From contig NZ_CP006867.1 in the NCBI RefSeq assembly GCF_001481685.1, forward strand, positions 150,001 through 182,000: a stretch of DNA of 32,000 nt. The letters run 5' to 3'. The position numbers were made by a program, and so were the translations under genes. Source of the DNA: Ignicoccus islandicus DSM 13165. GTDB lineage: Archaea; Thermoproteota; Thermoprotei_A; Sulfolobales; Ignicoccaceae. Every line of letters begins with the position of its first letter. The first letter of the stretch is position 1. A model generated the notes under the pieces. It ran no database searches and was not told where the DNA came from. It saw only the letters and a list, made by a program, of their open reading frames with translations. Below, piece after piece: positions 164 through 20,573 of the stretch.

Positions 164-265
164 TGGGGCCGCCGCCGGGATTTGAACCCGGGACCTCGGG
201 ATCTCCGCGGCCTCTCAGCCGGGCCTCCACAGTCCCGCGCTCTAACCAGCTGAGCTACGGCGGCC
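164..265 (-). tRNA. tRNA-His (anticodon GUG) with a 24-nt intron at 37/38, encoded G-1 and encoded 3' CCA
   Basis: The reverse complement folds as a cloverleaf. Elements in order: G-1; acceptor GCCGCCG/CGGCGGC; D arm GCTC-AGCTGGTTA-GAGC; anticodon stem CGGGA/TCCCG; loop CTGTGG[intron]A with GTG at 228-230; variable loop AGGTC; T arm CCGGG-TTCAAAT-CCCGG; discriminator C; CCA at 164-166. G-1 opposite C73 is the tRNA-His hallmark. Confidence 0.9.
203..226 (-). other. tRNA-His intron (24 nt; splice position ambiguous by 1 nt)
   Basis: The insert AGGCCCGGCTGAGAGGCCGCGGAG lies between G37 and A38. It has an internal hairpin GGCC-cggctgaga-GGCC. Its CCGC can pair with anticodon-loop GUGG, as expected for a bulge-helix-bulge substrate. 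Confidence 0.8.
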
Positions 266-2261: not shown

Positions 2262-2340
2262 TGGTGCGGCGGCCGGGATTTGAACCCGGGATCACCGGCT
2301 TGGGAGGCCGGCATCCTAGTCCAGGCTAGACGACCGCCGC
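2262..2340 (-). tRNA. tRNA-Gly (anticodon CCC), CCA encoded
   Basis: The reverse complement is GCGGCGG-TC-GTCT-AGCCTGGACTA-GGAT-G-CCGGC-CTCCCAA-GCCGG-TGATC-CCGGG-TTCAAAT-CCCGG-CCGCCGC-A-CCA. This is a full cloverleaf with no intron. Confidence 0.9.
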
Positions 2341-9431: not shown

Positions 9432-10352
9432 ATGGAGAGGAGGGACGTTATAGTTGTGGGAGCCGGGCCTGCGGGCCTCACGGCTGCGGCTACTCTGAAG
9501 CAATACGGAATAGAACCTTTAGTTCTAGAAGGGGAAAAGGTAATGGCAACGGTTTACTCATATGCATGGAAACCTGTAGAGAACTACCCGGGTTTCGATG
9601 GGAAGAAAGCAATAGAAATTGCTAGGGCTTTCGAGGAGATGGTCAATTACTTCGGGTTTGAAGTTAGGGAAGGTGAGAGGGTAATTAAGGCCTTTAAAGA
9701 AGGGGAGGAGATAGTAATTGAAAGCACTAAATTAACGTACGCAACGAAGGTATTGATTATCGCAATAGGAATACTTGGAAGGCCTAGGAGGATGGGTCTA
9801 CCAAACGAGGACTTACCGAACGTCCATTACATGGTAAAGGACCCAAAGGAGTTCTCTGGGACGAAGGTAGTAGTAGTTGGGGGAGGAGATACTGCAGTGG
9901 ATACAGCAACGGCGTTGGCTATGGAAGGAGCAGACGTAACTATAGTGCATAGAAGGGATCAGTTCAGAGCTCCCAAGAGGAGCGTCGATAAGATGATTAG
10001 CGCGGGCGTGAAGTTGGTGCTAAACAGCGTAGTGAAGGAAATAATAGCGGAAGGCGGCAAGGCTAAGGCTGTAAAGGTAGAGAACAAGGAAGGTCAGACT
10101 TTCGTGATACCGCTCGATCACTTGATTTTCCTCATTGGATACGAACCCCCGGACCTATCTTGGATAAAGGACTTAGGCGTCTTAATGAGAGGTAGAGAGA
10201 TAATAGTTGATGATAAAATGAAAACGAACGTCCAAGGAGTACTTGCGGCGGGAGACATAACGCCCGTCCCAAAGAGGATACTCGTGGCCTCGGCCCAAGG
10301 CTACATAGCCGCTTTAACTGCCTTTAGGTACTTAAAAACAGGGAAATGGTGA
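9432..10352 (+). CDS. FAD/NAD(P)-dependent oxidoreductase with thioredoxin-reductase fold, lacking the redox-active CxxC
   Basis: 306 aa. FAD motif VVGAGPAGLTAA, NAD(P) motif VVVVGGGDTAVDTA and C-terminal AAGD. The translation contains no cysteine at all. Confidence 0.8.
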   Translation: MERRDVIVVGAGPAGLTAAATLKQYGIEPLVLEGEKVMATVYSYAWKPVENYPGFDGKKAIEIARAFEEMVNYFGFEVREGERVIKAFKEGEEIVIESTKLTYATKVLIIAIGILGRPRRMGLPNEDLPNVHYMVKDPKEFSGTKVVVVGGGDTAVDTATALAMEGADVTIVHRRDQFRAPKRSVDKMISAGVKLVLNSVVKEIIAEGGKAKAVKVENKEGQTFVIPLDHLIFLIGYEPPDLSWIKDLGVLMRGREIIVDDKMKTNVQGVLAAGDITPVPKRILVASAQGYIAALTAFRYLKTGKW

Positions 10353-10355
10353 AAA

Positions 10356-10365
10356 CTTTTAAACC
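10356..10365 (+). promoter_or_regulatory. TATA box for initiator tRNA-Met
   Basis: CTTTTAAACC is centred near 10360. The predicted start near 10387 coincides with the first base of the GGCGGGG leader block. Confidence 0.45.
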
Positions 10366-10399
10366 GATATTCCGAAATGTTCTAACGGCGGGGTGACCT

Positions 10400-10476
10400 A
10401 GCGGGGTAGGGCAGCCTGGTAGCCCGCGGGGCTCATAACCCCGAGGTCGGTGGTTCAAATCCACCCCCCGCTACCA
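10400..10476 (+). tRNA. Initiator tRNA-Met (anticodon CAU), CCA encoded
   Basis: AGCGGGG-TA-GGGC-AGCCTGGTA-GCCC-G-CGGGG-CTCATAA-CCCCG-AGGTC-GGTGG-TTCAAAT-CCACC-CCCCGCT-A-CCA. The A1:U72 pair and three G:C pairs closing the anticodon stem are archaeal initiator signatures. Confidence 0.9.
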
Positions 10477-10556
10477 AGCGGGGCCCCGCCACCACTCCTT
10501 CTATCGAACGCTTCTAATACCCCTCTCTAAACACCTAATTCTTAGGTTCGAAAACC

Positions 10557-11342
10557 TTGGAACTGGGGCTCAAGGGGAAAAGGGTCCTCGTTACAGCCTC
10601 CACGAAAGGAATAGGATTTGCTATTGCTAAAACCTTCTTGAAGGAAGGAGCCCGGGTAGTGATAAGTTCTAGGAATCCCAAGAACGTGGAGAGCGCCTTA
10701 AGGGAACTCAAGAACTTAGGGGAAGTCTACGGCGTAGCTGCAGACGTCTCTTCTCCAACCCAAAGGGAAGAGCTCGTTCGAAGGGCGATCGAGGCGCTAG
10801 GCGGAATAGACGTATTCGTGTTCAATAGCGGGGGTCCGCCGACTAAGTCATTCATTGAGACTGAACTGGGCGATTGGGAAGCCTCCTATAGGCTCCTTCT
10901 CGAGAGCGCCGTTCACTTAACGAAGTTGATCTTACCTCAGATGGTTGAGAGGAAGTGGGGCAGAGTAGTCTACGTTACGAGCGTGGCAATAAAAATGCCC
11001 ATAGAAGGCTTGGTTCTATCTAACTCCGTTAGGATAGGGATAGCTGGCTTGGCTAAGACCTTGGTAAAGGAGTTTAAGGGAAGTGGAGTAACGTTTAATG
11101 TAGTGATGCCAGGATACACCTTAACTAAAAGGATGGAAGAAGTTTTGAGGAAGAGCGCCCAACTTCACGGAAGGACTTTCGAGGAAGAGCTACGGGAGCT
11201 GGAGTCGAAGATACCCATAGGTAGGATAGGGAAGCCCGAGGAAATAGCCAACGTTGTGGTCTTCTTAGCCTCCGAAGCCGCCTCTTACGTTAATGGCGAG
11301 GCGATAGCAGTGGATGGAGGCCTCGTACCAACGGTGTTCTGA
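10557..11342 (+). CDS. Short-chain dehydrogenase/reductase (FabG-like, atypical active site)
   Basis: 261 aa starting at TTG. Cofactor motif TASTKGIGFAIA, then VFNSGG. The region YVTSVAIKMPIEGLVLSNSVRIGIAGLAKTL has Ser and Arg where the canonical Tyr-x3-Lys is expected. Confidence 0.8.
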   Translation: MELGLKGKRVLVTASTKGIGFAIAKTFLKEGARVVISSRNPKNVESALRELKNLGEVYGVAADVSSPTQREELVRRAIEALGGIDVFVFNSGGPPTKSFIETELGDWEASYRLLLESAVHLTKLILPQMVERKWGRVVYVTSVAIKMPIEGLVLSNSVRIGIAGLAKTLVKEFKGSGVTFNVVMPGYTLTKRMEEVLRKSAQLHGRTFEEELRELESKIPIGRIGKPEEIANVVVFLASEAASYVNGEAIAVDGGLVPTVF

Positions 11343-11355
11343 ACGTATCACTTAA

Positions 11356-11784
11356 TTGAGTCTAACTAGACCTTTGGAGGAACTAGTTCAAGTATTGGGG
11401 GATTTGCTTAAGGTACCCAATGGGAGAAGGGTTATTAACGAAATTTTGGAGAACTACTTGAAGGAGCTATACGAGTACAATTCGAAATTACCTAAGGGCT
11501 TCGCAGTGAAACCCATACATTACGTTAAGTCGAAGGGTAAGAAATACGTTTACTTCGGAAGATATTTCTATAAATATGAAAGAGTTGGAGGCAAGGTTCG
11601 CTGGAAGTACGTTGGGAGGGAACCTCCCAAGGGTTATCCCCCGCCCCCCGTTAATCCCCTCGAAGGCATTAAGTTCGTAGTAGAGAAGGACTACCTACTA
11701 GTGGATGAGAGCGAGGTCGAAACCAACGAGATCCTCAGTGGAATACTAAAGAAGTACCTCAAAAACAAGAACGTAGGAATCTGA
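11356..11784 (+). CDS. Hypothetical protein with a Tyr/Lys-rich beta-hairpin-like motif
   Basis: 142 aa starting at TTG. The motif KYVYFGRYFYKYERVGGKVRWKYVGREPP is followed by a proline-rich stretch. It resembles, from memory only, a YxY..W...GK...KYxGK motif seen in small archaeal and mobile-element proteins. Confidence 0.45.
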   Translation: MSLTRPLEELVQVLGDLLKVPNGRRVINEILENYLKELYEYNSKLPKGFAVKPIHYVKSKGKKYVYFGRYFYKYERVGGKVRWKYVGREPPKGYPPPPVNPLEGIKFVVEKDYLLVDESEVETNEILSGILKKYLKNKNVGI

Positions 11785-11785
11785 A

Positions 11786-12082
11786 TTGAGAGCGGAGGAG
11801 CCGAACAAACTCGTTCTCTTGTTAATCAAAGAAACCGTTGAGGAACTTCTAGATATGGCGGAACCTGACGAGAAGCACGTCATAATGGAATTGGCATCGC
11901 TAATTGATGAAAAGGGCATTAAGCCTTCGAATTCGTTCGAAAAGAGAACGGTTGAAGCTTTGAGGGAGAGTATGGAAATGAGGAGGAGAGTAGCGGAAAA
12001 ACTCTACCCGATACTCAAGGACTTGATTCGCTCTGTTTATGAAGAATTAAGTACAAGAGACAGTTCAGCTTCGCAACAGTAG
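11786..12082 (+). CDS. Hypothetical small helical protein
   Basis: 98 aa; its TTG start is separated from the stop codon (ending 11784) of the previous ORF by a single nucleotide. Its 3' end overlaps the convergent nuclease gene by 68 nt. Confidence 0.4.
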   Translation: MRAEEPNKLVLLLIKETVEELLDMAEPDEKHVIMELASLIDEKGIKPSNSFEKRTVEALRESMEMRRRVAEKLYPILKDLIRSVYEELSTRDSSASQQ

Positions 12083-12620
12083 AATATAACCTCCAGTTAC
12101 CCCTTTTAGGCAACAAGCCCTTCGACTTGAGCTCCCTAACTATCTTAATTGCCTCCTCGTTCGGCTTCTCTAAATTAGCTATTTTGCAACATTCCTCGCA
12201 AGGGGCCAAGGAACCGAGTATTTCCGAAAAGAACGATTCCAAAACTTGGGATACTAGTTCAAACACTTCCTCCCTAGTGCTAACGTATATATCTTCGAAG
12301 AGCAAGTACTTAACTCCAAGTTCCTTTGCCATTAAGTAGGCCTCTTCGTTGCTCCAACCGGTGCCCATAACCATTGGAGTAGCGCCTATGACCTTCGCGT
12401 TAGCGTAGGCTTGCCTAACTGCGCTCACGTCTATTTTCCCCGACTTTACTTCCACCGCATACTTGCTGCAAGGAGCGTTAGCTAGCAAGTCGATCTCTGC
12501 AACTGTTCTATCGCCTATCTTAACTTCCTCATTAGTCGAAACGATCTCGAAGCCTATTCCTTCCAAGACGGCCCTGGCTAATTCCTCGCTTACCTTCCCC
12601 TTCTTCATTGCTCTCGTCAC
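12015..12620 (-). CDS. PD-(D/E)xK restriction-endonuclease-fold protein (Mrr/Hjc/RecB-like)
   Basis: 201 aa. VAEIDLLANAPCSKYAVEVKSGKIDVSAVRQ supplies D...E-x-K, followed by an Mrr_cat-like segment ATPMVMGTGWSNEEAYLMAKELGVKYLLFE. Confidence 0.6.
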   Translation of the reverse strand: MTRAMKKGKVSEELARAVLEGIGFEIVSTNEEVKIGDRTVAEIDLLANAPCSKYAVEVKSGKIDVSAVRQAYANAKVIGATPMVMGTGWSNEEAYLMAKELGVKYLLFEDIYVSTREEVFELVSQVLESFFSEILGSLAPCEECCKIANLEKPNEEAIKIVRELKSKGLLPKRGNWRLYSTVAKLNCLLYLILHKQSESSP

Positions 12621-12643
12621 TGTTAAGGGAGATTCGGAAAAAG

Positions 12644-12655
12644 AATAATATAAAG
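12644..12655 (+). promoter_or_regulatory. Candidate TATA box upstream of ileS
   Basis: AATAATATAAAG lies about 40 nt upstream of the ATG at 12690, in a 69-bp divergent intergenic region. Confidence 0.4.
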
Positions 12656-12689
12656 CGGGCTTCCAAAGAGGCGAAAGGGCAGAACCTCA

Positions 12690-15600
12690 ATGGAGGCTAA
12701 GTACGATCCAGTGAAAGTCGAAGAGGAAGTACTGAAGTTCTGGAAGGAAAACAAAATCTACGAGAAAGTTAAGGAAATAAGCAAGAAGAGGGGGAAGTCA
12801 AAACCGTTCAGGTTCTTAGAAGGTCCACCTACAGCCAACGGATTCATGCACGTAGGACACATGAGAGGGAGGACCTACAAGGACGTTACGCTCCGTTTCT
12901 GGAGGTTGAGGGGCTACTGGGTTTGGGACCAAGCTGGATGGGACACTCAAGGGCTACCCGTAGAGCTAGAGGTTGAGAAGAAGTACGGTTTCAAGAGCAA
13001 GAAGGACATAATTAAGTTCGGCGTAGATAAGTTCGTTCAAGAATGCCAGAAGCTAGTGGACTTCTACATCGATAAGTGGAGGAGAGATAGCGAGAGGATG
13101 GGCCTCTGGTTAGACTACGATAACGCATATCAGACTAGACATCCTAAGTACTTGGACGCGGCTTGGAGTTACTTGAAGAAGATGTACGATGAGGGTAGGA
13201 TCTACAAGGGCTTCAGGGTAGTGGCCGTTTGTCCTAGGTGCGAAACCGCCCTCTCCTCCCACGAAGTGGCTCAAGGTTACGAAACCGTTAGGGACCCCAG
13301 CTTCTACTTCAAGCTCCCCTTGAAGGGAGAAGAGAACGTTTACTTAATAGCTTGGACCACCACCCCTTGGACTATAATAGCTAACGAGGCGGCCGCCGTT
13401 CACCCAGAAGAGACTTACGTAAAAGTAAAGGTAAACTTCAATGGAAAAGAGGAATATTGGATATTAGCTGAGAAGAGGCTGGAGCCTGTCGCAAAGGAAG
13501 TGGGACTGAAGGAATACGAGCTCGTGGAGAAGTTCAAGGGAAGCGAGCTAATAGGGAAGGAGTACGTTCACCCGCTCTTGGAAGAGGTCCCGGCTCACAA
13601 GGAACACCAGAGGCCTAACCATACTGTAATAGAGGGAGCCTACGTTAGAGCTAGGAAGGTCGTTAACGGTAAGGAAGAAGTAATCAAGGAGATCTTCGTA
13701 ACTATGGATTCCGGTACTGGAATAGTTCACATGGCCCCGGCCCACGGTGCAGAGGACTTCGAAGCTTCGAAGGAAGCCGGTGTCAAGATGTTCAAACCCA
13801 TTAGAAAGGACGGTCACTTCACGGAAGAGGCCGGTAAGTACAGCGGAATGTGGTTTAAGGACGCCGAGAAAGAGGTCATGAAGGACCTCAAGAGGAAGGG
13901 CCTAGCTGTTCATATTGGAACTATAGAGCACGAGTACCCGCACTGTTGGAGGTGCGGAACGCCCCTCATGTACTACGCGGACGAGCAATGGTTCATTAAA
14001 GTGGAGGACTTGAGGGATTTAATGGTTAACGAGAACGACAAGGTCAAGTGGTATCCCAAATGGGCCTACGACAGAATGAGGGATTGGTTGCAGAACGCCA
14101 AGGACTGGACGATAAGTAGGGAAAGGTTCTGGGGAACTCCTCTCCCAATATGGACGTGTCCTAAATGCGGATACAGGAAGGCGTTCGGTAGCTTGGAAGA
14201 GGTCAAGAGGGAAGCGGTAAATCCCGAGAAGGTCGTAGACCATCACAGGCCTTGGATAGACGAGGTGAGAGTTAGATGCCCCAAGTGCGGGGCCGAAATG
14301 GTTAGGGAACCTTACGTGGTTGACGTTTGGTTGGACTCCGGCGTAGCGCACACGGCGGCCCTTCACCAGATAGGTAAGGACGATTACTGGAAACTGTTCT
14401 ATCCGTACGACTGGATAACCGAGGCCTTGGACCAAACGAGGGGATGGTTCTACACCCTATTGGCTACCGGAGTTACTTGGCACGGAAGAACTCCCTATAA
14501 GAGGGTCCTCACCCAAGGACACATCTTAGATAAAGACGGTAAGAAGATGAGCAAGAGCAAGGGTAACGTCGTATGGGCAGAGGAGGCCTTCAAGACTTAC
14601 GGGGCGGATCCGGTCAGGTTCTTCTTCGCAGTCAAGTCCGCTCCTTGGGAGTCCGTCAGGTTCGATCCGAAGGACATAAGGTTCTATAAGAGGACGCTGG
14701 ACGTCCTGTGGAACTCAGTCAGGTTCGCCAAGAGCTACATGGAGTTAGACAAGTGGGACCTAAGCAAGTTCGAGGAAGGCCTGAAGTACTTGGAACCTGA
14801 GGACCATTGGGTGTTACATCAGGTTAACCAATATTCCAAGAAGATAATAGAAGCCATGGAGGAGTCTTCGATACACAAGGCCGCTCAGGCGTGGAACGAG
14901 TTAGTGAACGAAGTACTGAGTCACAAGTACGTCACTCTGATAAGGCCGAGAGTTTGGGAAGAGGAAGAGAGCCCCAGCAAATTAGCGGCATATTCGACCT
15001 TGTACGCCGTCTTGGAGGCTACAATAGTGATGGGCTCGATATTCGTTCCGTTCCTCGCAGAGTACCTCTACCAAAACTTCTCTCGGAAGCTGGGAAGGGA
15101 AGAGGAGAGCGTCCACATGTTAACGTGGCCCGAGGAGTTTACGGTACAGAACGAGGAGATAGCTCAAGCAGTAGAAGAATTCTTGGAAGCTGGAGATAAA
15201 ATACTATCGCTTAGAATGGAGAGAGGGATCAAGAGGAGGTGGCCTCTACCGGAAGCAATAGTGGTACCGAAGAAGTTCGGCGAGAAGAGGCTCAAGAAGC
15301 TAGTGAAGAGGGAAAAGGGAGTTGAGGAAATGGAAGTTGAAGTACCAGTAATAAGCAGACCAGTAATAGAGGAAGCTTCTAAGGTACTCAAGGTATACGC
15401 CAACGTACTAGACGTAAGGCTAAGCGATGAGAGGCCCTCCGGCGATTACGACGTAATAGAGGAACCGGACTTCTGGGTTTACGTAAAGGTAAAGATGGAC
15501 GAAAAGGTGAAAGCCTTAGGCTTGGTTAGGGAAGTGATAAGGAGAATTCAAGTAATGAGGAAGGAGGAGAACTTGGAGCTGGATTACGTCTTAAGGAAAG

Positions 15601-15767
15601 TCGTAATATGGGCCCCAGAGGATCTCAAGGAGGCAGTGAGGGAATACAAAGATTACGTAGCTAGGGAAGTGAGAGCCGAGGAAATAGAGCTCGTAGACGA
15701 ACCCTTTGAGGGAGGCAAGAAGTGGGAAGTCGAAGGCAAAGAGTTAATAGTTAAGCTCGTCAAGTAA
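12690..15767 (+). CDS. ileS: Isoleucyl-tRNA synthetase
   Basis: 1025 aa. HIGH-type motif PPTANGFMHVGH, KMSKS motif KKMSKSKGN, WTTTPWTIIANEA, WTISRERFWGTPLPIW, and several CxxC zinc knuckles (CPRCETA, CWRCGTP, CPKCGYR, CPKCGAE). Confidence 0.95.
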   Translation: MEAKYDPVKVEEEVLKFWKENKIYEKVKEISKKRGKSKPFRFLEGPPTANGFMHVGHMRGRTYKDVTLRFWRLRGYWVWDQAGWDTQGLPVELEVEKKYGFKSKKDIIKFGVDKFVQECQKLVDFYIDKWRRDSERMGLWLDYDNAYQTRHPKYLDAAWSYLKKMYDEGRIYKGFRVVAVCPRCETALSSHEVAQGYETVRDPSFYFKLPLKGEENVYLIAWTTTPWTIIANEAAAVHPEETYVKVKVNFNGKEEYWILAEKRLEPVAKEVGLKEYELVEKFKGSELIGKEYVHPLLEEVPAHKEHQRPNHTVIEGAYVRARKVVNGKEEVIKEIFVTMDSGTGIVHMAPAHGAEDFEASKEAGVKMFKPIRKDGHFTEEAGKYSGMWFKDAEKEVMKDLKRKGLAVHIGTIEHEYPHCWRCGTPLMYYADEQWFIKVEDLRDLMVNENDKVKWYPKWAYDRMRDWLQNAKDWTISRERFWGTPLPIWTCPKCGYRKAFGSLEEVKREAVNPEKVVDHHRPWIDEVRVRCPKCGAEMVREPYVVDVWLDSGVAHTAALHQIGKDDYWKLFYPYDWITEALDQTRGWFYTLLATGVTWHGRTPYKRVLTQGHILDKDGKKMSKSKGNVVWAEEAFKTYGADPVRFFFAVKSAPWESVRFDPKDIRFYKRTLDVLWNSVRFAKSYMELDKWDLSKFEEGLKYLEPEDHWVLHQVNQYSKKIIEAMEESSIHKAAQAWNELVNEVLSHKYVTLIRPRVWEEEESPSKLAAYSTLYAVLEATIVMGSIFVPFLAEYLYQNFSRKLGREEESVHMLTWPEEFTVQNEEIAQAVEEFLEAGDKILSLRMERGIKRRWPLPEAIVVPKKFGEKRLKKLVKREKGVEEMEVEVPVISRPVIEEASKVLKVYANVLDVRLSDERPSGDYDVIEEPDFWVYVKVKMDEKVKALGLVREVIRRIQVMRKEENLELDYVLRKVVIWAPEDLKEAVREYKDYVAREVRAEEIELVDEPFEGGKKWEVEGKELIVKLVK

Positions 15768-16064: not shown

Positions 16065-17540
16065 TTGATCGGTAAGTTAGTGCTCCCCTTGCTTCCGTTC
16101 CTATTAGCTATAGGCTACTTCACGGGCTGGTTCCTCCCCTTCGTTAGCTCGGCCCTCCTTTGCGCGAAGGCCGCGCCGGGTCTGTGGACCCTTCTCGTCG
16201 CGCTCGCGCTTCCATTAGCGTTCTACCTAGCGAGGGAAGTTAGGGCCGGGAACGAGGTTAATTTGAGCTACCTAATAGCCTATTTAGTGGTAGTAGTTGG
16301 ACCTCTGGCTTGGTTAGTAAGCGTAACGGCAGTTTCCCAAGTTGGGAGCTCCGTTAAGGTCGTCGAGTTGAGGGAGCTACCGAACTTAGTGGGAGTTTAC
16401 AGATTAATACCTCTACCGACGGCCTATAAGTACGCAATAGACAGGATTCAGTTGCCTACGCATACAATCTACTATCAAGAAACTTACGTTTATTACAACG
16501 GAACCAGGCCCATTTACAATTGGCTCATAGAGCCTGAAGGCGTTCTCAATTCGCTTTTCAGGAATCCCCGCGGAGCTGTGTTCGTTTACGCAGACACCTA
16601 TCCTCCGGAGGTCAAGATAGTGAAGCAAGATCTGACTTGGGGATTACATAACTACAAACTAACCCCTCTCTTCTTAGATTCGTTGGCTTTGGAGAGCCTT
16701 TTCAATGGGGCCTTCGGTAGAGAGGTTATATGGGAAGACGTCGCTGACGTGTATCTGAACGGTCAAGTTATTCAGCTATTGCCAGTAGTGGATTACAAAC
16801 CCATGTTTCCGGGATCCTTGCCTTACATCGATTCTTACTTAGTCGTTTATCCTAATGGTACTATTTCGAAAGTGAGGCCAGAGGAGGTAGTCCGCTACGG
16901 AGTGCCCGCGTTACCGGAGAGGGTAGCTAGGCAGTGGGTAGACGCCTTGAGAATGAAGGATTGGGTTCAAGCCGTCTTCTTTCACAATACGTTTACCATA
17001 AGGGACGTTGGAGATAACCCCCAGCCATACCTCCTTTTGGATGATGAGGGTCGCCCTTGGTGGGTCTTCGTTGCGGAACCTCCTGGGAACACTTACTCCG
17101 CTTACATGATTCTACTGGTGAACGCTTCCTCCACCGAGCCGGTGATCTACGTCTACAAATTCAATAAACCTAAAATAGGGGTTTCGAAGGCCTATAGCTA
17201 CGTAATGAAGGCACATCCCAATTGGGCTTGGAACTCGCTCAAGGTTCAGGAGCCCCTTCCCACGATAATTAACTCGACCTTCTATTGGAAGCTCTCAGTA
17301 ACCACGTCTGACTCTAGGGGATTGGTAAGCATAGAGTTCGTTGACGCAGACAGCGGAAACACGATCAGCGTTAGCGTTGAAGGGAAACTTAACGCTAATG
17401 AGGTTCTAGCGAGCTTGCTCAAAGGAAAGGTCAACGAGAAAGAGGAACTGAACCTTAACGAACTCTTGAAGAAAATCGAACGAATAAAAGCCGAATTGAA
17501 CGAGCTTGAGGAAATGGTGAAGAAGATAGCATCTAAGTAA
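16065..17540 (+). CDS. Membrane-anchored extracellular protein with a C-terminal coiled coil (possibly distantly UPF0182/COG1615-like)
   Basis: 491 aa starting at TTG. It has 3-4 N-terminal TM helices, a large sequon-rich domain (NGT, NAS, NST) and the tail ELNLNELLKKIERIKAELNELEEMVKK. The family assignment is from memory only. Confidence 0.5.
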   Translation: MIGKLVLPLLPFLLAIGYFTGWFLPFVSSALLCAKAAPGLWTLLVALALPLAFYLAREVRAGNEVNLSYLIAYLVVVVGPLAWLVSVTAVSQVGSSVKVVELRELPNLVGVYRLIPLPTAYKYAIDRIQLPTHTIYYQETYVYYNGTRPIYNWLIEPEGVLNSLFRNPRGAVFVYADTYPPEVKIVKQDLTWGLHNYKLTPLFLDSLALESLFNGAFGREVIWEDVADVYLNGQVIQLLPVVDYKPMFPGSLPYIDSYLVVYPNGTISKVRPEEVVRYGVPALPERVARQWVDALRMKDWVQAVFFHNTFTIRDVGDNPQPYLLLDDEGRPWWVFVAEPPGNTYSAYMILLVNASSTEPVIYVYKFNKPKIGVSKAYSYVMKAHPNWAWNSLKVQEPLPTIINSTFYWKLSVTTSDSRGLVSIEFVDADSGNTISVSVEGKLNANEVLASLLKGKVNEKEELNLNELLKKIERIKAELNELEEMVKKIASK

Positions 17541-17632
17541 CCAGTGAGCGCAACTATTGTGCTCTAAGGTTATTTGAGAAACCTAATTAGGATGAGAAAC
17601 GTCTTTACGAACGGTAAACGAGGTTTTGTAGT

Positions 17633-17776
17633 ATGGAAAACAACGATAGGTTGGCGAAAGGTATAGGGCTAGTCACCTTCGGCTTGCTTTGGATGATCAG
17701 TGGTGACTTCTTGAAGTCTGCTTTAATAGCGTTGGGTGTGTACCTAATTGTACAAGCCCTAGGTGATAGACAGTGA
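17633..17776 (+). CDS. Small two-TM membrane protein (47 aa, below the ORF-track cutoff)
   Basis: ATG at 17633, translating as MENNDRLAKGIGLVTFGLLWMISGDFLKSALIALGVYLIVQALGDRQ. Its stop TGA overlaps the GTG start of the next gene (GTGA at 17773-17776). Confidence 0.45.
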   Translation: MENNDRLAKGIGLVTFGLLWMISGDFLKSALIALGVYLIVQALGDRQ

Positions 17777-18573
17777 ACGTAGATAAGGCGTTCCACTTGA
17801 TTAGCGGCCTCCTCTTCGTTTCAGCGGGAATCGCCTTAACCTTAGATATAAAAGTTCCACTTAGCTTTGACCCTAAGCTGCTGTTGGGCTTGCTTTTAAT
17901 AGCGATTGGTGTGAGCATTGCCTTCGGCGCTTCGTTAGGTAGCGCCCTAGTATTCGGGTTATCCCTATTAGTTCTGCTCCTTTCCATTTCAAGTCTCTCG
18001 TTCCCGTTCGAGTTCAACGTTAAGGGCTCGACCCTTTCATCGAAAGGGAACGTAACTAATTGCGATGGCTTAAGCGTAAAGGCAATTCTCTCAAAAATGC
18101 GAATATTAAGTGGGAACTCGACCGAATACTTGACCGAGGGACCGAGCGATCAAGTTCTATTGAACGCTTGTTCCCTTCGCTTTTGTTGTTCCAACACTTC
18201 TCTGGAAATAGGAGACTTAAAATCGCTCGATTTAGAACTAGTTATGAGTTCCTTACGAGGCAACGTGAACAAGTGCTTAGGAGAGCTCCGAGTAAACTCA
18301 GTAATGAGCGATTCCTCCTTGGAACTGGAAATACCTTCCAACTGTAACTCGGAAATCCGCTTGGAATCCGTGATGGGATCCATTAAATTGAAAGTGATCG
18401 TTCCTAACGGAACTAAAGTGAAATACTCTCTTTCGGGCGCTCTCGGTGAAGCAGTAGTGGAGACCCCCGAAGGAGCTAGTAGTATTGGAGAATTCGGGGA
18501 AGGGAGCAACGAGGTACTCATTCGAGGCAAAGCGTCCCTCGGGGAAATTCGTGTCCAAATCCAACGCAAGTAA
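17773..18573 (+). CDS. Membrane protein with a C-terminal beta-repeat domain (possibly toast-rack / DUF4097-DUF2154-like)
   Basis: 266 aa. The N-terminal region is TM (LLFVSAGIALTL, LLLIAIGVSIAFGASLG, LSLLVLLLSI). C-terminal beta-strand motifs repeat (LELVMSSLRGNV, LRVNSVMSDSSLELEI, IRLESVMGSIKLKV, LGEIRVQI). Confidence 0.5.
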   Translation: MNVDKAFHLISGLLFVSAGIALTLDIKVPLSFDPKLLLGLLLIAIGVSIAFGASLGSALVFGLSLLVLLLSISSLSFPFEFNVKGSTLSSKGNVTNCDGLSVKAILSKMRILSGNSTEYLTEGPSDQVLLNACSLRFCCSNTSLEIGDLKSLDLELVMSSLRGNVNKCLGELRVNSVMSDSSLELEIPSNCNSEIRLESVMGSIKLKVIVPNGTKVKYSLSGALGEAVVETPEGASSIGEFGEGSNEVLIRGKASLGEIRVQIQRK

Positions 18574-18716
18574 ATTTATTCGGTTTAACGTAATTACCGA
18601 AAGCGCAGATGTGGAAGGATTATCGATGCGATCAGATGAGCGGCGGGAGTACGACCGAAGCGTTCTCCGGTATTTATTATCCTAGTGAGCCATTCGAAGT
18701 TCCTTAGGGAGTAAAC

Positions 18717-18935
18717 GTGTCCCTTAAGGAGGTTAGAAGTCCAATACTGAAGAGCGTGGCCAAGATCGCTCTTCAGGAGCTCGGTGCCCAAGTAATAATT
18801 CCGGAAATGGAGATAGAGGGCAAGAAGGTAATTGGGGTAGGGATAAAGGGAGACGTAGCTTACGTAGTTGAGCCTAATGGAATGGAGAAAGAGCTAAAGA
18901 AGGTGTTAAGAGTTAAGAAGGTGATTGAACTATAA
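18717..18935 (+). CDS. Small protein, paralog A (candidate PIN partner / antitoxin)
   Basis: 72 aa starting at GTG, with GGGAG 5 nt upstream (18707-18711). It stops 5 nt before the PIN gene start. Its codons for ELGAQVIIPEMEIEGKKVIGVGIKGDVAYVVEPNGMEKELKKVLRVK lie in the 142-bp repeat. Confidence 0.55.
   Translation: MSLKEVRSPILKSVAKIALQELGAQVIIPEMEIEGKKVIGVGIKGDVAYVVEPNGMEKELKKVLRVKKVIEL
18776..18917 (+). repeat. Direct repeat copy 1 (142 bp, identical to 19478-19619)
   Basis: Base-by-base comparison of the two stretches shows no mismatch. Identity breaks immediately at both ends. Confidence 0.95.
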
Positions 18936-18940
18936 GGGTA

Positions 18941-19426
18941 GTGTTCGATACCAGCGCCCTCTTTAAAATACTGCTTAAGAGCCCCCAGTGCATTGTAGAA
19001 CTGGCTAAGTTCTGCGATCGCGAGGAATGTTGGGTATCTAGAGGTTCCGTTGACGAAATGGTTAACGAGGTAGTAGAGAAAATGGTAAATTGGATGTTCG
19101 GAAAGGCGAAAGGAGACAGTGGAATGGAAAAGTTCAAGAGGCTTTGCATCAACGCAATAACGAATTCCGTCCAATTCCTACTAGTTGCCCGTGTAGGGGA
19201 GGGGGAAGCTCCCCGAGACGAGATATCGGAAGATATAGAAAGGAAGTTAAGATTAAGGGATGAGAACGATTTGCATTTGCTAAGGCTAGCTTTCGAGAAA
19301 TCGCCGTGTACTTTGGTTTCGGATGATAAAGACCTGCTAGATTTATCTGACGAATTGAAGAGGAAAGGAATAGAGGTGAAGACGACAGATGAGTTCCTTA
19401 GAAGAGTTTGCCGAGGAACTGATTGA
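18941..19426 (+). CDS. PIN-domain protein (VapC-like ribonuclease)
   Basis: 161 aa starting at GTG. The N-terminal VFDTSALFKIL carries the first acidic residue. ENDLHLLRLAFEKSPCTLVSDDKDLLDL matches the PIN C-terminal D...(T/S)xD pattern. Confidence 0.65.
   Translation: MFDTSALFKILLKSPQCIVELAKFCDREECWVSRGSVDEMVNEVVEKMVNWMFGKAKGDSGMEKFKRLCINAITNSVQFLLVARVGEGEAPRDEISEDIERKLRLRDENDLHLLRLAFEKSPCTLVSDDKDLLDLSDELKRKGIEVKTTDEFLRRVCRGTD
19373..19379 (+). promoter_or_regulatory. Shine-Dalgarno element for the small gene starting at 19389
   Basis: GAGGTGA lies 9 nt upstream of the ATG at 19389, inside the 3' end of the PIN gene. Confidence 0.5.
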
Positions 19427-19646
19427 GGAACTGCGCGATAGAAAGAGGAAACTCGGTGAAGCCAAGAAGAGGCTAACGGAGCTCGGTGCCCAAGTAATAA
19501 TTCCGGAAATGGAGATAGAGGGCAAGAAGGTAATTGGGGTAGGGATAAAGGGAGACGTAGCTTACGTAGTTGAGCCTAATGGAATGGAGAAAGAGCTAAA
19601 GAAGGTGTTAAGAGTTAAGGAAGTAGTGCTAGTTCCGGTTCGCTAA
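19389..19646 (+). CDS. Small protein, paralog B (coiled-coil N-terminus, C-terminal 47 aa identical to paralog A)
   Basis: 85 aa with an ATG start and a strong SD. It overlaps the PIN gene 3' end by 38 nt. The N-terminus is MSSLEEFAEELIEELRDRKRKLGEAKKRLT, followed by the shared repeat-encoded segment. Confidence 0.6.
   Translation: MSSLEEFAEELIEELRDRKRKLGEAKKRLTELGAQVIIPEMEIEGKKVIGVGIKGDVAYVVEPNGMEKELKKVLRVKEVVLVPVR
19478..19619 (+). repeat. Direct repeat copy 2 (142 bp, identical to 18776-18917)
   Basis: See copy 1. The copy-to-copy offset is 702 bp. Confidence 0.95.
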
Positions 19647-19838: not shown

Positions 19839-20573
19839 ATGAAAAGAGTCGCCACCTTGTTCCTTATTCTAGCATTAGGACTGGCGTACGCTCAAACTGA
19901 GAACGTAACTAACACGTGCGTGCCCTCAACTACAACTATAATAGTAACTTCCATCCAACCAGTTACTAGCGTTGTAACGCAAAACGTTACCACGATACTT
20001 TACAAGACATTTACTATCCCGACTACCATAGTTTCAACCGTTACGAAGAGCGTAATTTCTACTATAACAACAACCGTAAGTACCGTGACCACGATATTCT
20101 CATCCTCTGTAAAATTCGTAACTGTAACGATTACAGTGCCTTCTGTAACTACTACGGCGATTACTAAATACATACTCACTACGACTACTATAATTCTTCC
20201 AACTACCATCTATGAGACCGTAACTAAGACAACTACTGTAACCGTAACCACGGTCCTATCGACCGTGAAGACTTTAACTACGACCCTCGTTACTACCGTT
20301 ACTTCCTATATACCGACCTACGTAACAATGTGGTTGACCTCGACCGTTACGGACGTAATAACTCATAGCGTAACTGAAACGGTTACGACAACGTTATACA
20401 AGGCATTGACCTTAACTACCACCACTACTGTGATAAAGGAAGTAACTGACGTCGTAACGACCACCATAGAAAACAGTGGTAGCGTAATAGTCCCACTCGG
20501 ACTAGGTGCCCTCCTAGTAATAGTTCTGGCCGTATTAGGCATAATATTCAGAACGGTTACTAAGGGCGAATAA
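19839..20573 (+). CDS. Thr/Val/Ile-rich low-complexity surface protein with signal peptide and C-terminal TM anchor
   Basis: 244 aa with signal peptide MKRVATLFLILALGLAYAQ. By my count 77 of 244 residues are Thr. The C-terminus is IVPLGLGALLVIVLAVLGIIFRTVTKGE. NVT sequons lie near the N-terminus. Confidence 0.7.
   Translation: MKRVATLFLILALGLAYAQTENVTNTCVPSTTTIIVTSIQPVTSVVTQNVTTILYKTFTIPTTIVSTVTKSVISTITTTVSTVTTIFSSSVKFVTVTITVPSVTTTAITKYILTTTTIILPTTIYETVTKTTTVTVTTVLSTVKTLTTTLVTTVTSYIPTYVTMWLTSTVTDVITHSVTETVTTTLYKALTLTTTTTVIKEVTDVVTTTIENSGSVIVPLGLGALLVIVLAVLGIIFRTVTKGE

What the first reader, a model, noticed from the sequence alone, without database searches (positions are those of the whole stretch)
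18717..19646. PIN-domain gene bracketed by two paralogous small genes that share a perfect 142-bp direct repeat
**What the sequence shows**

- **The repeat:** 18776-18917 and 19478-19619 are identical at every base, with a 702-bp offset. Identity stops abruptly at both edges, and the flanks keep only weak similarity (VAKIALQ vs EAKKRLT upstream; KVIEL vs EVVLVPVR downstream).
- **What it encodes:** The repeat encodes the C-terminal 47 aa of two small proteins of 72 and 85 aa.
- **First small gene:** It ends 5 nt before the PIN gene, the classic antitoxin-toxin spacing.
- **Second small gene:** It starts inside the PIN 3' end, behind a perfect GAGGTGA Shine-Dalgarno sequence.

**Possible readings**

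1. A three-gene toxin-antitoxin-like module. One VapC-like toxin would be served by two partners with identical C-terminal domains but different N-termini, one short and one a charged coiled coil.
2. Recent gene conversion homogenising the repeat.
3. A recombination-prone cassette. Crossover between the direct repeats would excise the PIN gene on a 702-bp circle and leave one chimeric small gene, giving a possible on/off switch for the toxin.

I do not recognise the shared beta-rich domain as any standard antitoxin fold (AbrB, CopG/RHH, Phd, HTH).
Basis: partly seen in the sequence, partly recalled or inferred. Interest (0 to 1): 0.7.

Follow-up and report, generated by a model that had tools for sequence, protein, structure and literature searches.

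The report
Conserved small–PIN–small archaeal gene cassette
In Ignicoccus archaea a PIN-nuclease (toxin-like) gene sits between two copies of a previously undescribed small gene; this three-gene layout is shared by several species, and recombination keeps the two copies identical, so it looks like an unusual toxin–antitoxin-type module rather than an artefact.

Summary
Window 18776-18917 and 19478-19619 are identical over 142 bp at a 702-bp offset, inside two homologous small genes (72 and 85 aa) that flank a 161-aa PIN gene. The window is Ignicoccus islandicus DSM 13165 (EYM_00975/00980/00985).

- **The layout is conserved.** Small gene, overlapping PIN gene, then a second small gene starting inside the PIN 3' end recurs in I. 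pacificus, in a MAG (GCA_054020855.1) and in a metagenome contig.
- **The duplication is old.** In I. pacificus the two small genes differ at 35 of 120 core bases. The I. islandicus identity, with no synonymous difference, is therefore a recent gene-conversion tract. The MAG also has a perfect repeat of at least 94 nt.
- **The PIN assignment holds by sequence.** The acidic residues are invariant (D3, E39, D107/D110, D129), and all relatives hit Pfam PIN families.
- **The small proteins are unclassified.** About 10 sequences are known, all from Ignicoccus-like archaea, with no match in Pfam, NCBIfam, PDB, PADLOC or PHROGs.
- **Solo copies exist.** Three contigs carry a single small gene with no PIN.

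Best reading: a three-gene, translationally coupled, toxin–antitoxin-like PIN operon with two paralogous partners. The architecture and the gene conversion are shown; the antitoxin role is inferred. A programmed excision switch is untested. I rate it a new variant of a known kind, of moderate interest.

The parts
18673..18680 (+). TATA-like box (TTTATTAT) about 37 nt upstream of the first small gene; possible archaeal promoter of the three-gene operon
   Evidence: Read from the sequence. Inferred only; no archaeal promoter tool was available.
18717..18935 (+). Upstream small gene ('up', EYM_00975, 72 aa, pI 9.3): N-terminal helix ILKSVAKIALQ, then a beta-rich core, then the tail KVIEL
   Evidence: ORF and exact database match. 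Orthologue-like genes occur in L001, L002, L004, L005 and L009. Differences from orthologues fall mainly at third codon positions, so it is a real coding gene.
18776..18917 (+). Repeat copy 1: a 142-bp gene-conversion tract encoding ELGAQVIIPEMEIEGKKVIGVGIKGDVAYVVEPNGMEKELKKVLRVK
   Evidence: Exact identity with 19478-19619.
18918..18925 (+). Shine-Dalgarno-like AAGGTGAT for the PIN gene, inside the 3' end of the upstream gene; the identity tract ends exactly before it
   Evidence: Sequence. Equivalent GAGGTA/GGAGGTAG motifs precede the PIN start in L002, L004 and L005.
18941..19426 (+). PIN-domain gene (EYM_00980, 161 aa, pI 5.2), the putative RNase toxin. The ancestral start position (18932-18934) is ATA here; the in-frame peptide IRVVFDTSALF aligns with I. 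pacificus LRVILDTNVIF
   Evidence: Pfam PIN_3 E=1.6e-4 and PIN E=3.6e-3, both below the gathering score. Relatives hit PIN_2 at 2.1e-8 and PIN_3 at 2.5e-7. D3, E39, D107, D110 and D129 are invariant in alignments A2 and pin.aln.
19373..19379 (+). Shine-Dalgarno GAGGTGA for the downstream small gene, embedded in the conserved PIN codons I-E-V
   Evidence: Sequence. The same motif sits in the same PIN codons in L005 (GGAGGTGAT) and L004 (GAGGTGG).
19389..19646 (+). Downstream small gene ('dn', EYM_00985, 85 aa, pI 6.4): charged N-terminal helix, the same core, and the tail EVVLVPVR. Its start overlaps the last 38 nt of the PIN gene
   Evidence: ORF and database match. Positional orthologues start inside the PIN 3' end in L002, L004 and L005, always in the same relative frame.
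19478..19619 (+). Repeat copy 2 (142 bp)
   Evidence: Exact identity with 18776-18917.

Best explanation
This is a conserved, translationally coupled three-gene operon found in Ignicoccus and close relatives. A basic small protein (up) is followed by a VapC-like PIN nuclease, then by a second, more acidic paralogue of the small protein (dn) whose start lies inside the PIN 3' end.

**Shown**
- The up/dn duplication is old.
- In I. islandicus a recent gene-conversion event has made the shared beta-rich core of the two paralogues identical over 142 bp. The same very likely applies to the MAG and the metagenome contig.
- The N-terminal helices and the C-terminal tails stay different. The tails carry the PIN ribosome-binding site and start overlap.

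**Inferred**
- The module works like a type II toxin–antitoxin system. The PIN protein would be an RNase toxin, and the small proteins would bind and neutralise it through, or assembled by, their common core.
- The two paralogues would give a built-in 2:1 partner-to-toxin dosage and/or a hetero-oligomer whose two N-termini do different jobs, for example nucleic-acid binding by the basic up protein.
- The direct repeats will also occasionally recombine and delete the PIN gene, leaving one intact small gene. That may be the origin of the solo copies seen elsewhere.
For: **Architecture**
- Four loci share it: the window; I. pacificus L002 (up 10001-10228, PIN 10212-10709, dn 10687-10953); MAG L005 (4281-4451, 4441-4983, 4946 to the contig end); L004 (293-460, 450-1004, 955 to the contig end).
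- In all four the PIN-to-dn frame shift is +1. The SD for dn is embedded in the same PIN codons in three of the four.

**Old duplication plus conversion**
- The I. pacificus up and dn cores differ at 10/7/18 sites by codon position (65% nt identity over the 47-codon core). That is as far apart as I. pacificus is from I. islandicus.
- The I. islandicus pair differs at 0/0/0 sites.
- The MAG pair is identical over 94 nt, up to the contig end.
- L004 ends exactly where the repeat would begin.

**PIN identity**
- The acidic residues are invariant, and all relatives hit Pfam PIN families.
- More distant PIN_3 relatives sit in canonical two-gene pairs. P0016 follows an RHH_1 gene with a 4-nt overlap, so the up gene occupies the antitoxin position.

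**Real coding genes**
- Differences between orthologues fall mainly at third codon positions.

**Consistent up/dn difference**
- The pI of up is 9.3 and 9.4; the pI of dn is 6.4 and 5.0, in the two species.
Against: - No evidence of physical interaction or toxicity.
- The small proteins match no known antitoxin or DNA-binding family. Their fold is unresolved: pLDDT 60, best Foldseek E=0.49.
- The window PIN scores below the Pfam gathering thresholds and lacks a canonical start codon at the ancestral position. The single-sequence AF2 model of the PIN was useless, pLDDT 49.
- Intact solo small genes with no PIN (L001, L003, L009) suggest the small protein may have a PIN-independent role.
- The family is tiny, about 10 sequences, so conservation statistics are thin.
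- Perfect identity in a finished genome could in principle be exaggerated by consensus polishing. No reads were available.
Confidence: 0.6

Rival explanations
1. Recombination cassette or switch. The direct repeats exist to allow RadA-mediated crossover that excises the PIN gene, as a 702-bp circle carrying the reciprocal chimeric small gene plus the PIN. The chromosome is left with one chimeric small gene. Solo loci would be the 'off' or empty state. The circle could even re-integrate by homologous recombination in the small gene (Campbell-type).
For: - Perfect or near-perfect direct repeats flank the PIN gene in at least two, and probably three, lineages.
- Solo small genes without a PIN exist in two clades, with no PIN remnant.
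- The P0003 N-terminus is up-type (7 of 12 residues identical). The solos lack the up-type VIE[LI]* tail.
- The cassette sits in non-syntenic contexts in every genome.
Against: - I. pacificus keeps the architecture with diverged repeats (81% over 88 nt, 65% over the core). High identity is therefore not required for maintenance.
- There is no integrase or recombinase nearby.
- The 3' tails and flanks of the solo genes have no significant similarity to the dn tail.
- Neither predicted chimera occurs in a 15-billion-protein collection.
- A 702-bp circle has no room for a replication origin.
- Deletion would be one-way, so it is not a switch.
- PIN divergence (20-29% identity) tracks small-gene divergence, which fits vertical descent.
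Confidence: 0.12
2. This is not a toxin–antitoxin system. The small proteins are the primary functional units, for example small nucleic-acid-binding proteins of Ignicoccus. The PIN is an accessory housekeeping RNase that works with them, for example as an RNA-processing complex. The duplication would simply provide two isoforms.
For: - Intact solo copies under purifying selection occur without a PIN.
- The up protein is basic.
- The small proteins resemble no antitoxin family.
- The window neighbourhood is housekeeping genes: a class I aminoacyl-tRNA synthetase (Pfam tRNA-synt_1), TYW3, and a DUF1246/DUF1297 protein.
Against: - The distribution is patchy. No member was recovered beyond I. islandicus, I. 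pacificus and a few uncultured relatives, and genomic locations vary between species. That is typical of TA or defence modules, not of core RNA-processing factors.
- The PIN belongs to the VapC-like PIN_2/PIN_3 groups, which are classified as TA toxins (PMC5499597).
- The gene order and overlaps mimic canonical VapBC pairs.
Confidence: 0.22
3. Artefact or very recent duplication. The second copy of the 142-bp segment would come from an assembly error, or from a recent local duplication with no functional meaning.
For: - Identity is perfect.
- MAG assemblies break at this repeat, which shows that it is hard to assemble.
Against: - Both copies lie in frame inside complete ORFs whose flanks are homologous but diverged.
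- The same two-copy architecture, with diverged copies, is in the finished I. pacificus genome.
- A recent duplication would give identity across the whole duplicated unit, not a patch inside older paralogues.
Confidence: 0.03

Closest known systems
VapBC-type type II toxin–antitoxin modules (VapC-like PIN_2/PIN_3 toxins with an upstream antitoxin gene)
   Same: - A small gene lies immediately upstream of, and overlaps or abuts, a roughly 160-aa PIN gene that keeps the conserved acidic residues.
- Distribution is patchy and genomic location is variable.
- The nearest outside PIN_3 relative (P0016) is in a canonical RHH–PIN pair.
   Different: - The partner protein matches no known antitoxin DNA-binding family (AbrB/MazE, RHH, Phd/YefM, HTH) by sequence.
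- A second paralogue of the partner sits downstream of the toxin gene and overlaps its 3' end.
- The two partners undergo concerted evolution.
Three-component TA systems: omega-epsilon-zeta, PaaR-PaaA-ParE, toxin-antitoxin-chaperone (TAC), HipBST, and PIN with HTH and a DUF955 protease
   Same: Three co-oriented genes in one operon around a toxin. The third component is thought to modulate regulation or antitoxin function (PMC8138530, PMC5499597, PMC2701414).
   Different: - In the known systems the third gene is an unrelated regulator, chaperone or protease, usually upstream.
- Here the third gene is a paralogue of the first and shares an identical core domain.
- I found no description of a toxin flanked by two paralogous partner genes.
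Concerted evolution (gene conversion) of closely linked paralogues
   Same: A patch of perfect identity, synonymous sites included, lies inside older diverged paralogues. Its boundaries fall where functional constraints differ. The phenomenon is seen independently in a second lineage.
   Different: Here the converted paralogues bracket a toxin-like gene. The same homology also creates a deletion-prone direct repeat around that gene.
Integron-type or Campbell-type gene cassettes (small promoterless circles that often carry TA genes)
   Same: A compact unit of about 700 bp is bounded by direct repeats, and its excision would give a fully coding circle.
   Different: No integrase, attC-like site or array is present. 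The repeats are coding sequence of the flanking genes. No excised form has been observed.

Membership tests
PIN domain superfamily (VapC-like: Pfam PIN_3 PF13470, PIN PF01850, PIN_2 PF10130) | Significant match to a PIN profile | tested here: inconclusive
   The window protein scores PIN_3 22.9 bits (GA 27, E=1.6e-4) and PIN 18.3 bits (GA 23.6), nearly full-length but below threshold. Its homologues from L002, L004 and L005 hit PIN_2 at 2.1e-8, PIN_3 at 2.5e-7 and PIN at 1.7e-6. Membership therefore holds by transitivity.
PIN domain superfamily (VapC-like: Pfam PIN_3 PF13470, PIN PF01850, PIN_2 PF10130) | Conserved acidic active-site residues: an N-terminal D in a DT-type motif, a mid E, a D in D..D.H, and a C-terminal D in S.D | tested here: met
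   D3, E39, D107, D110 and D129 are invariant across the four homologues.
PIN domain superfamily (VapC-like: Pfam PIN_3 PF13470, PIN PF01850, PIN_2 PF10130) | Rossmann-like alpha/beta/alpha PIN fold | tested here: inconclusive
   The single-sequence AF2 model has pLDDT 49, is all-helical and is unusable. PDB sequence and profile searches gave no hits.
Type II toxin–antitoxin module (VapBC-like) | A small partner gene adjacent to the toxin gene, co-oriented and translationally coupled, with the pairing conserved across genomes | tested here: met
   The up-to-PIN spacing is a 5-nt gap or an 11- to 17-nt overlap in 4 of 4 loci.
Type II toxin–antitoxin module (VapBC-like) | The partner belongs to a recognised antitoxin or DNA-binding family (AbrB/MazE, RHH, Phd/YefM, HTH) | tested here: not met
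   No Pfam, NCBIfam, PADLOC, PHROGs or PDB match for any of the 10 family members. hhalign against an RHH antitoxin gave probability 0.1%. Sequence methods only; the fold is unresolved.
Type II toxin–antitoxin module (VapBC-like) | The toxin arrests growth, and the partner binds and neutralises it | not testable with these tools
   This needs expression and rescue assays, or at least a complex structure prediction; no multimer tool was available.
Known three-component TA systems (omega-epsilon-zeta, PaaR-PaaA-ParE, TAC, HipBST) | The third gene encodes a dedicated regulator, chaperone or protease unrelated to the antitoxin | tested here: not met
   The third gene is a paralogue of the first, with an identical core in the window and 60% aa identity in I. 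pacificus.
Gene conversion / concerted evolution between paralogues | An identity tract bounded by diverged but homologous flanks, with synonymous sites also identical | tested here: met
   142 of 142 bases are identical, with 0 differences at third positions, and the flanks are diverged.
Gene conversion / concerted evolution between paralogues | The duplication predates the identity: orthologous two-copy loci elsewhere have diverged copies | tested here: met
   I. pacificus up and dn differ at 35 of 120 core bases.
Site-specific mobile cassette (integron-like or integrative element) | An integrase or recombinase and att-type sites associated with the repeats | tested here: not met
   No integrase or transposase domain was found in the neighbouring ORFs. 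There are no inverted repeats, and no hits in viral contigs.

The most novel reading that the evidence does not exclude
The cassette could be a minimal selfish element that uses its own partner gene as the recombination site. A circle of about 700 bp, carrying one chimeric small gene plus the PIN, would integrate into and excise from a chromosomal solo small gene by homologous recombination within the conserved core. That would produce the up/dn pair on entry and restore a solo gene on exit. The solo genes in L001, L003 and L009 would be empty sites, and the perfect repeats in I. islandicus and the MAG would mark recent events. Alternatively, or in addition, flanking a toxin gene with two identical partner cores would be a selected fail-safe, so that any recombinational loss of the toxin always leaves an intact antitoxin.
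Probability: 0.1. Interest if true: 0.8.

Novelty: new variant of a known kind. Interest (0 to 1): 0.5.

Why it matters
- **A new partner family.** If the small proteins do neutralise the PIN, they define a new antitoxin-like family restricted to Ignicoccus-type hyperthermophiles.
- **A new operon plan.** The partner–toxin–partner layout, in which both partners are paralogues kept identical by gene conversion, was not turned up by my literature searches.
- **A natural test case.** It could show how homologous recombination in hyperthermophilic archaea shapes toxin-like modules, through dosage, hetero-oligomer formation and safe loss of the toxin.
- **Annotation.** It gives a function hypothesis for three genes now annotated as hypothetical or generic PIN-domain proteins in two type strains.
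- **Limits.** The system is rare and the function is still inferred, so the impact is moderate unless experiments show a new mechanism.

Tried and rejected
**Database scans**
- Genome contigs and metagenome-contig scans with the first three-sequence alignment found nothing, and I. islandicus itself was not recovered.
- An eight-sequence alignment was too diverse for pattern search.
- A second metagenome scan and a viral scan found nothing.

**Structure**
- AF2 of the small protein (three-sequence MSA) gave pLDDT 60. Foldseek against PDB gave nothing below E=0.49.
- AF2 of the PIN from a single sequence gave pLDDT 49 and was unusable. No fold claim is made from either model.

**Sequence and profile searches**
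- PDB sequence and profile searches for the PIN and the small proteins gave only chance hits. A weak Nmd4 (PIN) hit at E=0.92 was checked by hhalign of the small-protein profile against the PIN profile and rejected, probability 0.05%.
- Pfam, NCBIfam, PADLOC and PHROGs gave nothing for the small proteins.

**Test of 'solo gene = N(up) + C(dn) recombinant'**
- Local nucleotide alignment of the solo 3' tails and flanks against both window tails did not exceed shuffled controls. I keep this idea only as weakly suggestive.
- An exact look-up of both predicted recombinant proteins found neither.

**Other**
- A synteny test of flanks among loci found none.
- Rfam found only the three tRNAs.
- The composition profile shows no foreign-DNA signature around the cassette.
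- Literature searches found no earlier description.
Full report
**1. Observation**

The window is from Ignicoccus islandicus DSM 13165. The three ORFs are exact matches to EYM_00975 (72 aa, 18717-18935), EYM_00980 (161 aa, 18941-19426) and EYM_00985 (85 aa, 19389-19646).

A direct comparison shows that 18776-18917 and 19478-19619 are identical at all 142 positions, offset 702 bp. Weaker homology continues for a few codons on either side. This is the only long repeat in the 32-kb window, and the local base composition is unremarkable.

- The gap between the first small gene and the PIN gene is 5 nt.
- The PIN gene and the second small gene overlap by 38 nt.
- GAGGTGA lies 9 nt before the second gene's ATG.

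**2. What the genes are**

The 161-aa protein gives near-full-length but sub-threshold Pfam matches to PIN_3 (E=1.6e-4) and PIN. A word-indexed search found no close homologue. Homologues were reached through the small-gene neighbours, from I. pacificus (IPA_02420), a metagenome contig (L004) and a MAG (L005).

The four PIN proteins are 20-55% identical to one another. They share an invariant D in the N-terminal (V/L)(F/L)DT motif, a mid-protein E, D..D.H, and S.D. In the window protein these are D3, E39, D107/D110 and D129. Every member hits Pfam PIN families; the best scores are PIN_2 at 2.1e-8 and PIN_3 at 2.5e-7. I could not confirm the fold, because the single-sequence AF2 model was unusable and there were no PDB sequence hits.

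The small proteins have no match in Pfam, NCBIfam, PADLOC, PHROGs or PDB. An exhaustive HMMER scan of 1.84 billion representative proteins found only six hits. With the neighbours, the family has about ten members, all from Ignicoccus or uncultured relatives. A low-confidence AF2 model (pLDDT 60) suggests an N-terminal helix followed by beta strands. Foldseek found nothing significant.

Differences between orthologues fall mainly at third codon positions, for example 5/1/16 by codon position for I. islandicus against L001. These are therefore real, selected coding genes.

**3. The key comparative result**

The same three-gene arrangement recurs in three other loci.

| Locus | Upstream small gene | PIN gene | Downstream small gene | Repeat |
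|---|---|---|---|---|
| I. pacificus DSM 13166 (L002) | 75 aa, 10001-10228 | 10212-10709; true N-terminus LRVILDTNVIF lies upstream of the called start | 88 aa, 10687-10953, starts inside the PIN 3' end | 81% identical over 88 nt; 65% nt / 60% aa over the 47-codon core |
| MAG GCA_054020855.1 (L005) | 56 aa | 180 aa | starts inside the PIN 3' end | perfect 94-nt repeat, spacing 740, running to the contig end |
| Metagenome contig L004 | 55 aa | 184 aa | VSSFQDLEREVKRRVSERTLVLMELAEAVPEA, matching the L005 downstream N-terminus | the k141 contig stops exactly where the repeat would begin |

In all four loci the PIN-to-downstream frame relation is the same. In three of them the downstream gene's Shine-Dalgarno sequence is embedded in the same PIN I/V-E-V codons. 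Upstream-type C-termini (VIE[LI]*) are shared between I. islandicus and the L004/L005 clade.

The I. pacificus paralogues are as diverged from each other as they are from the I. islandicus genes. The duplication is therefore old. The 142-bp identity in I. islandicus has no synonymous change and sits inside diverged homologous flanks, so it is a gene-conversion tract. The tract ends exactly before the AAGGTGAT that serves as the PIN ribosome-binding site. This fits selection against conversion of the functionally distinct tails.

**4. Solo copies**

Three contigs carry one intact small gene and no PIN:
- L001 (P0003), between an ABC permease gene and a gene for a secreted protein.
- L003 (P0006).
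- L009, 160 nt downstream of a tRNA-Gly identical to the window's. It has a probable homopolymer frameshift.

tblastn found no PIN remnant in any of them.

The P0003 N-terminus is clearly of the upstream type, and the solos lack the upstream-type tail. That is what a crossover between the repeats would produce. However, their 3' tails and flanks show no significant nucleotide similarity to either window tail. Neither predicted I. islandicus recombinant protein exists in the 15-billion-protein collection. Deletion by repeat recombination is therefore plausible as an evolutionary route to solo genes, but a programmed switch is not demonstrated.

The cassette lies in a different genomic context in every genome. 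In I. pacificus it sits next to type III CRISPR RAMP genes.

**5. Mechanism**

Shown:
- A conserved small–PIN–small operon architecture with translational-coupling signals.
- An old duplication, and recurrent homogenisation of the core.
- Conserved PIN catalytic residues.
- Consistent charge asymmetry between the paralogues: upstream pI about 9.3-9.4, downstream about 5.0-6.4.

Inferred:
- A toxin–antitoxin-like function. The upstream gene occupies the position held by an RHH antitoxin in the nearest outside PIN_3 pair. PIN_2 and PIN_3 families are classified as TA toxins (PMC5499597).
- The identical cores suggest that both paralogues use the same surface, either for PIN binding or for homo- or hetero-oligomerisation. 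The distinct N-terminal helices would diversify function.
- Two partner genes per toxin gene would also enforce partner excess, the strategy proposed for TA modules without autoregulation (PMC8138530).

**6. Comparison with known systems**

The module works most like VapBC. It fails one family criterion, a recognised antitoxin family, by sequence tests.

It differs from all three-component TA systems I could find: omega-epsilon-zeta, PaaR-PaaA-ParE, TAC, HipBST, and PIN with HTH and DUF955. In those systems the third gene is an unrelated regulator, chaperone or protease. I found no report of a toxin gene bracketed by paralogous partner genes undergoing concerted evolution.

**7. Verdict**

- Reading 3 remains open.
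- This is a new variant of a known kind: a VapC-like TA-type module with a novel, duplicated partner.
- Interest is moderate. The lineage is narrow and the function is inferred, but the architecture is clean and testable.

Noticed in passing
window 18918-18943: At the position where the I. pacificus and MAG PIN genes start (TTG), I. islandicus has ATA (18932-18934), 6 nt after a good SD (AAGGTGAT). The annotated GTG (18941) is 15 nt from that SD and leaves only two residues before the catalytic D. PIN translation may therefore be weak or may use a non-canonical start.
   Followed up: partly
L002 (I. pacificus CP006868.1) 10943-14770 and 1734-2484: The I. pacificus cassette directly abuts three RAMP-superfamily (type III CRISPR-Cas) genes on the opposite strand. 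A HEPN/nucleotidyltransferase (MNT-HEPN type) pair lies 8 kb upstream. A 245-aa ORF at 14881-15618 gives a weak PIN-like tblastn hit (E=0.008).
   Followed up: partly
L009 (JGI 3300030446 Ga0169454_109618) 1493-1990: A solo small gene lies 160 nt downstream of a tRNA-Gly(CCC) that is 100% identical to window 2262-2340. AT-rich DNA and assembly gaps follow. The gene has a one-base frameshift in a G6 run, which is either a sequencing error or a pseudogene.
   Followed up: partly
L004 end (1050), L005 end (5132), L007 start (contig end): Three independent metagenome or MAG contigs terminate inside, or at the edge of, the small-gene core. Assemblers evidently break at this repeat, so two-copy loci are probably under-represented in metagenome assemblies.
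   Followed up: partly
window 19839-20573: A 244-aa ORF that is extremely rich in Thr and Val, with an N-terminal signal-like segment and a C-terminal hydrophobic anchor, and no Pfam match. It is probably a low-complexity surface protein.
   Followed up: no
window 164-264: ARAGORN calls a 101-nt tRNA-Leu(GAG). Its 3' half shares a 37-nt stretch at 84% identity with tRNA-Gly at 2262-2298; this is ordinary tRNA similarity.
   Followed up: no
window 16065-18573: Two adjacent ORFs for predicted membrane proteins (491 aa and 266 aa) lie just upstream of the cassette. They have no significant Pfam family; the only hit is a weak LiaF-like C-terminal match at E=0.15.
   Followed up: no
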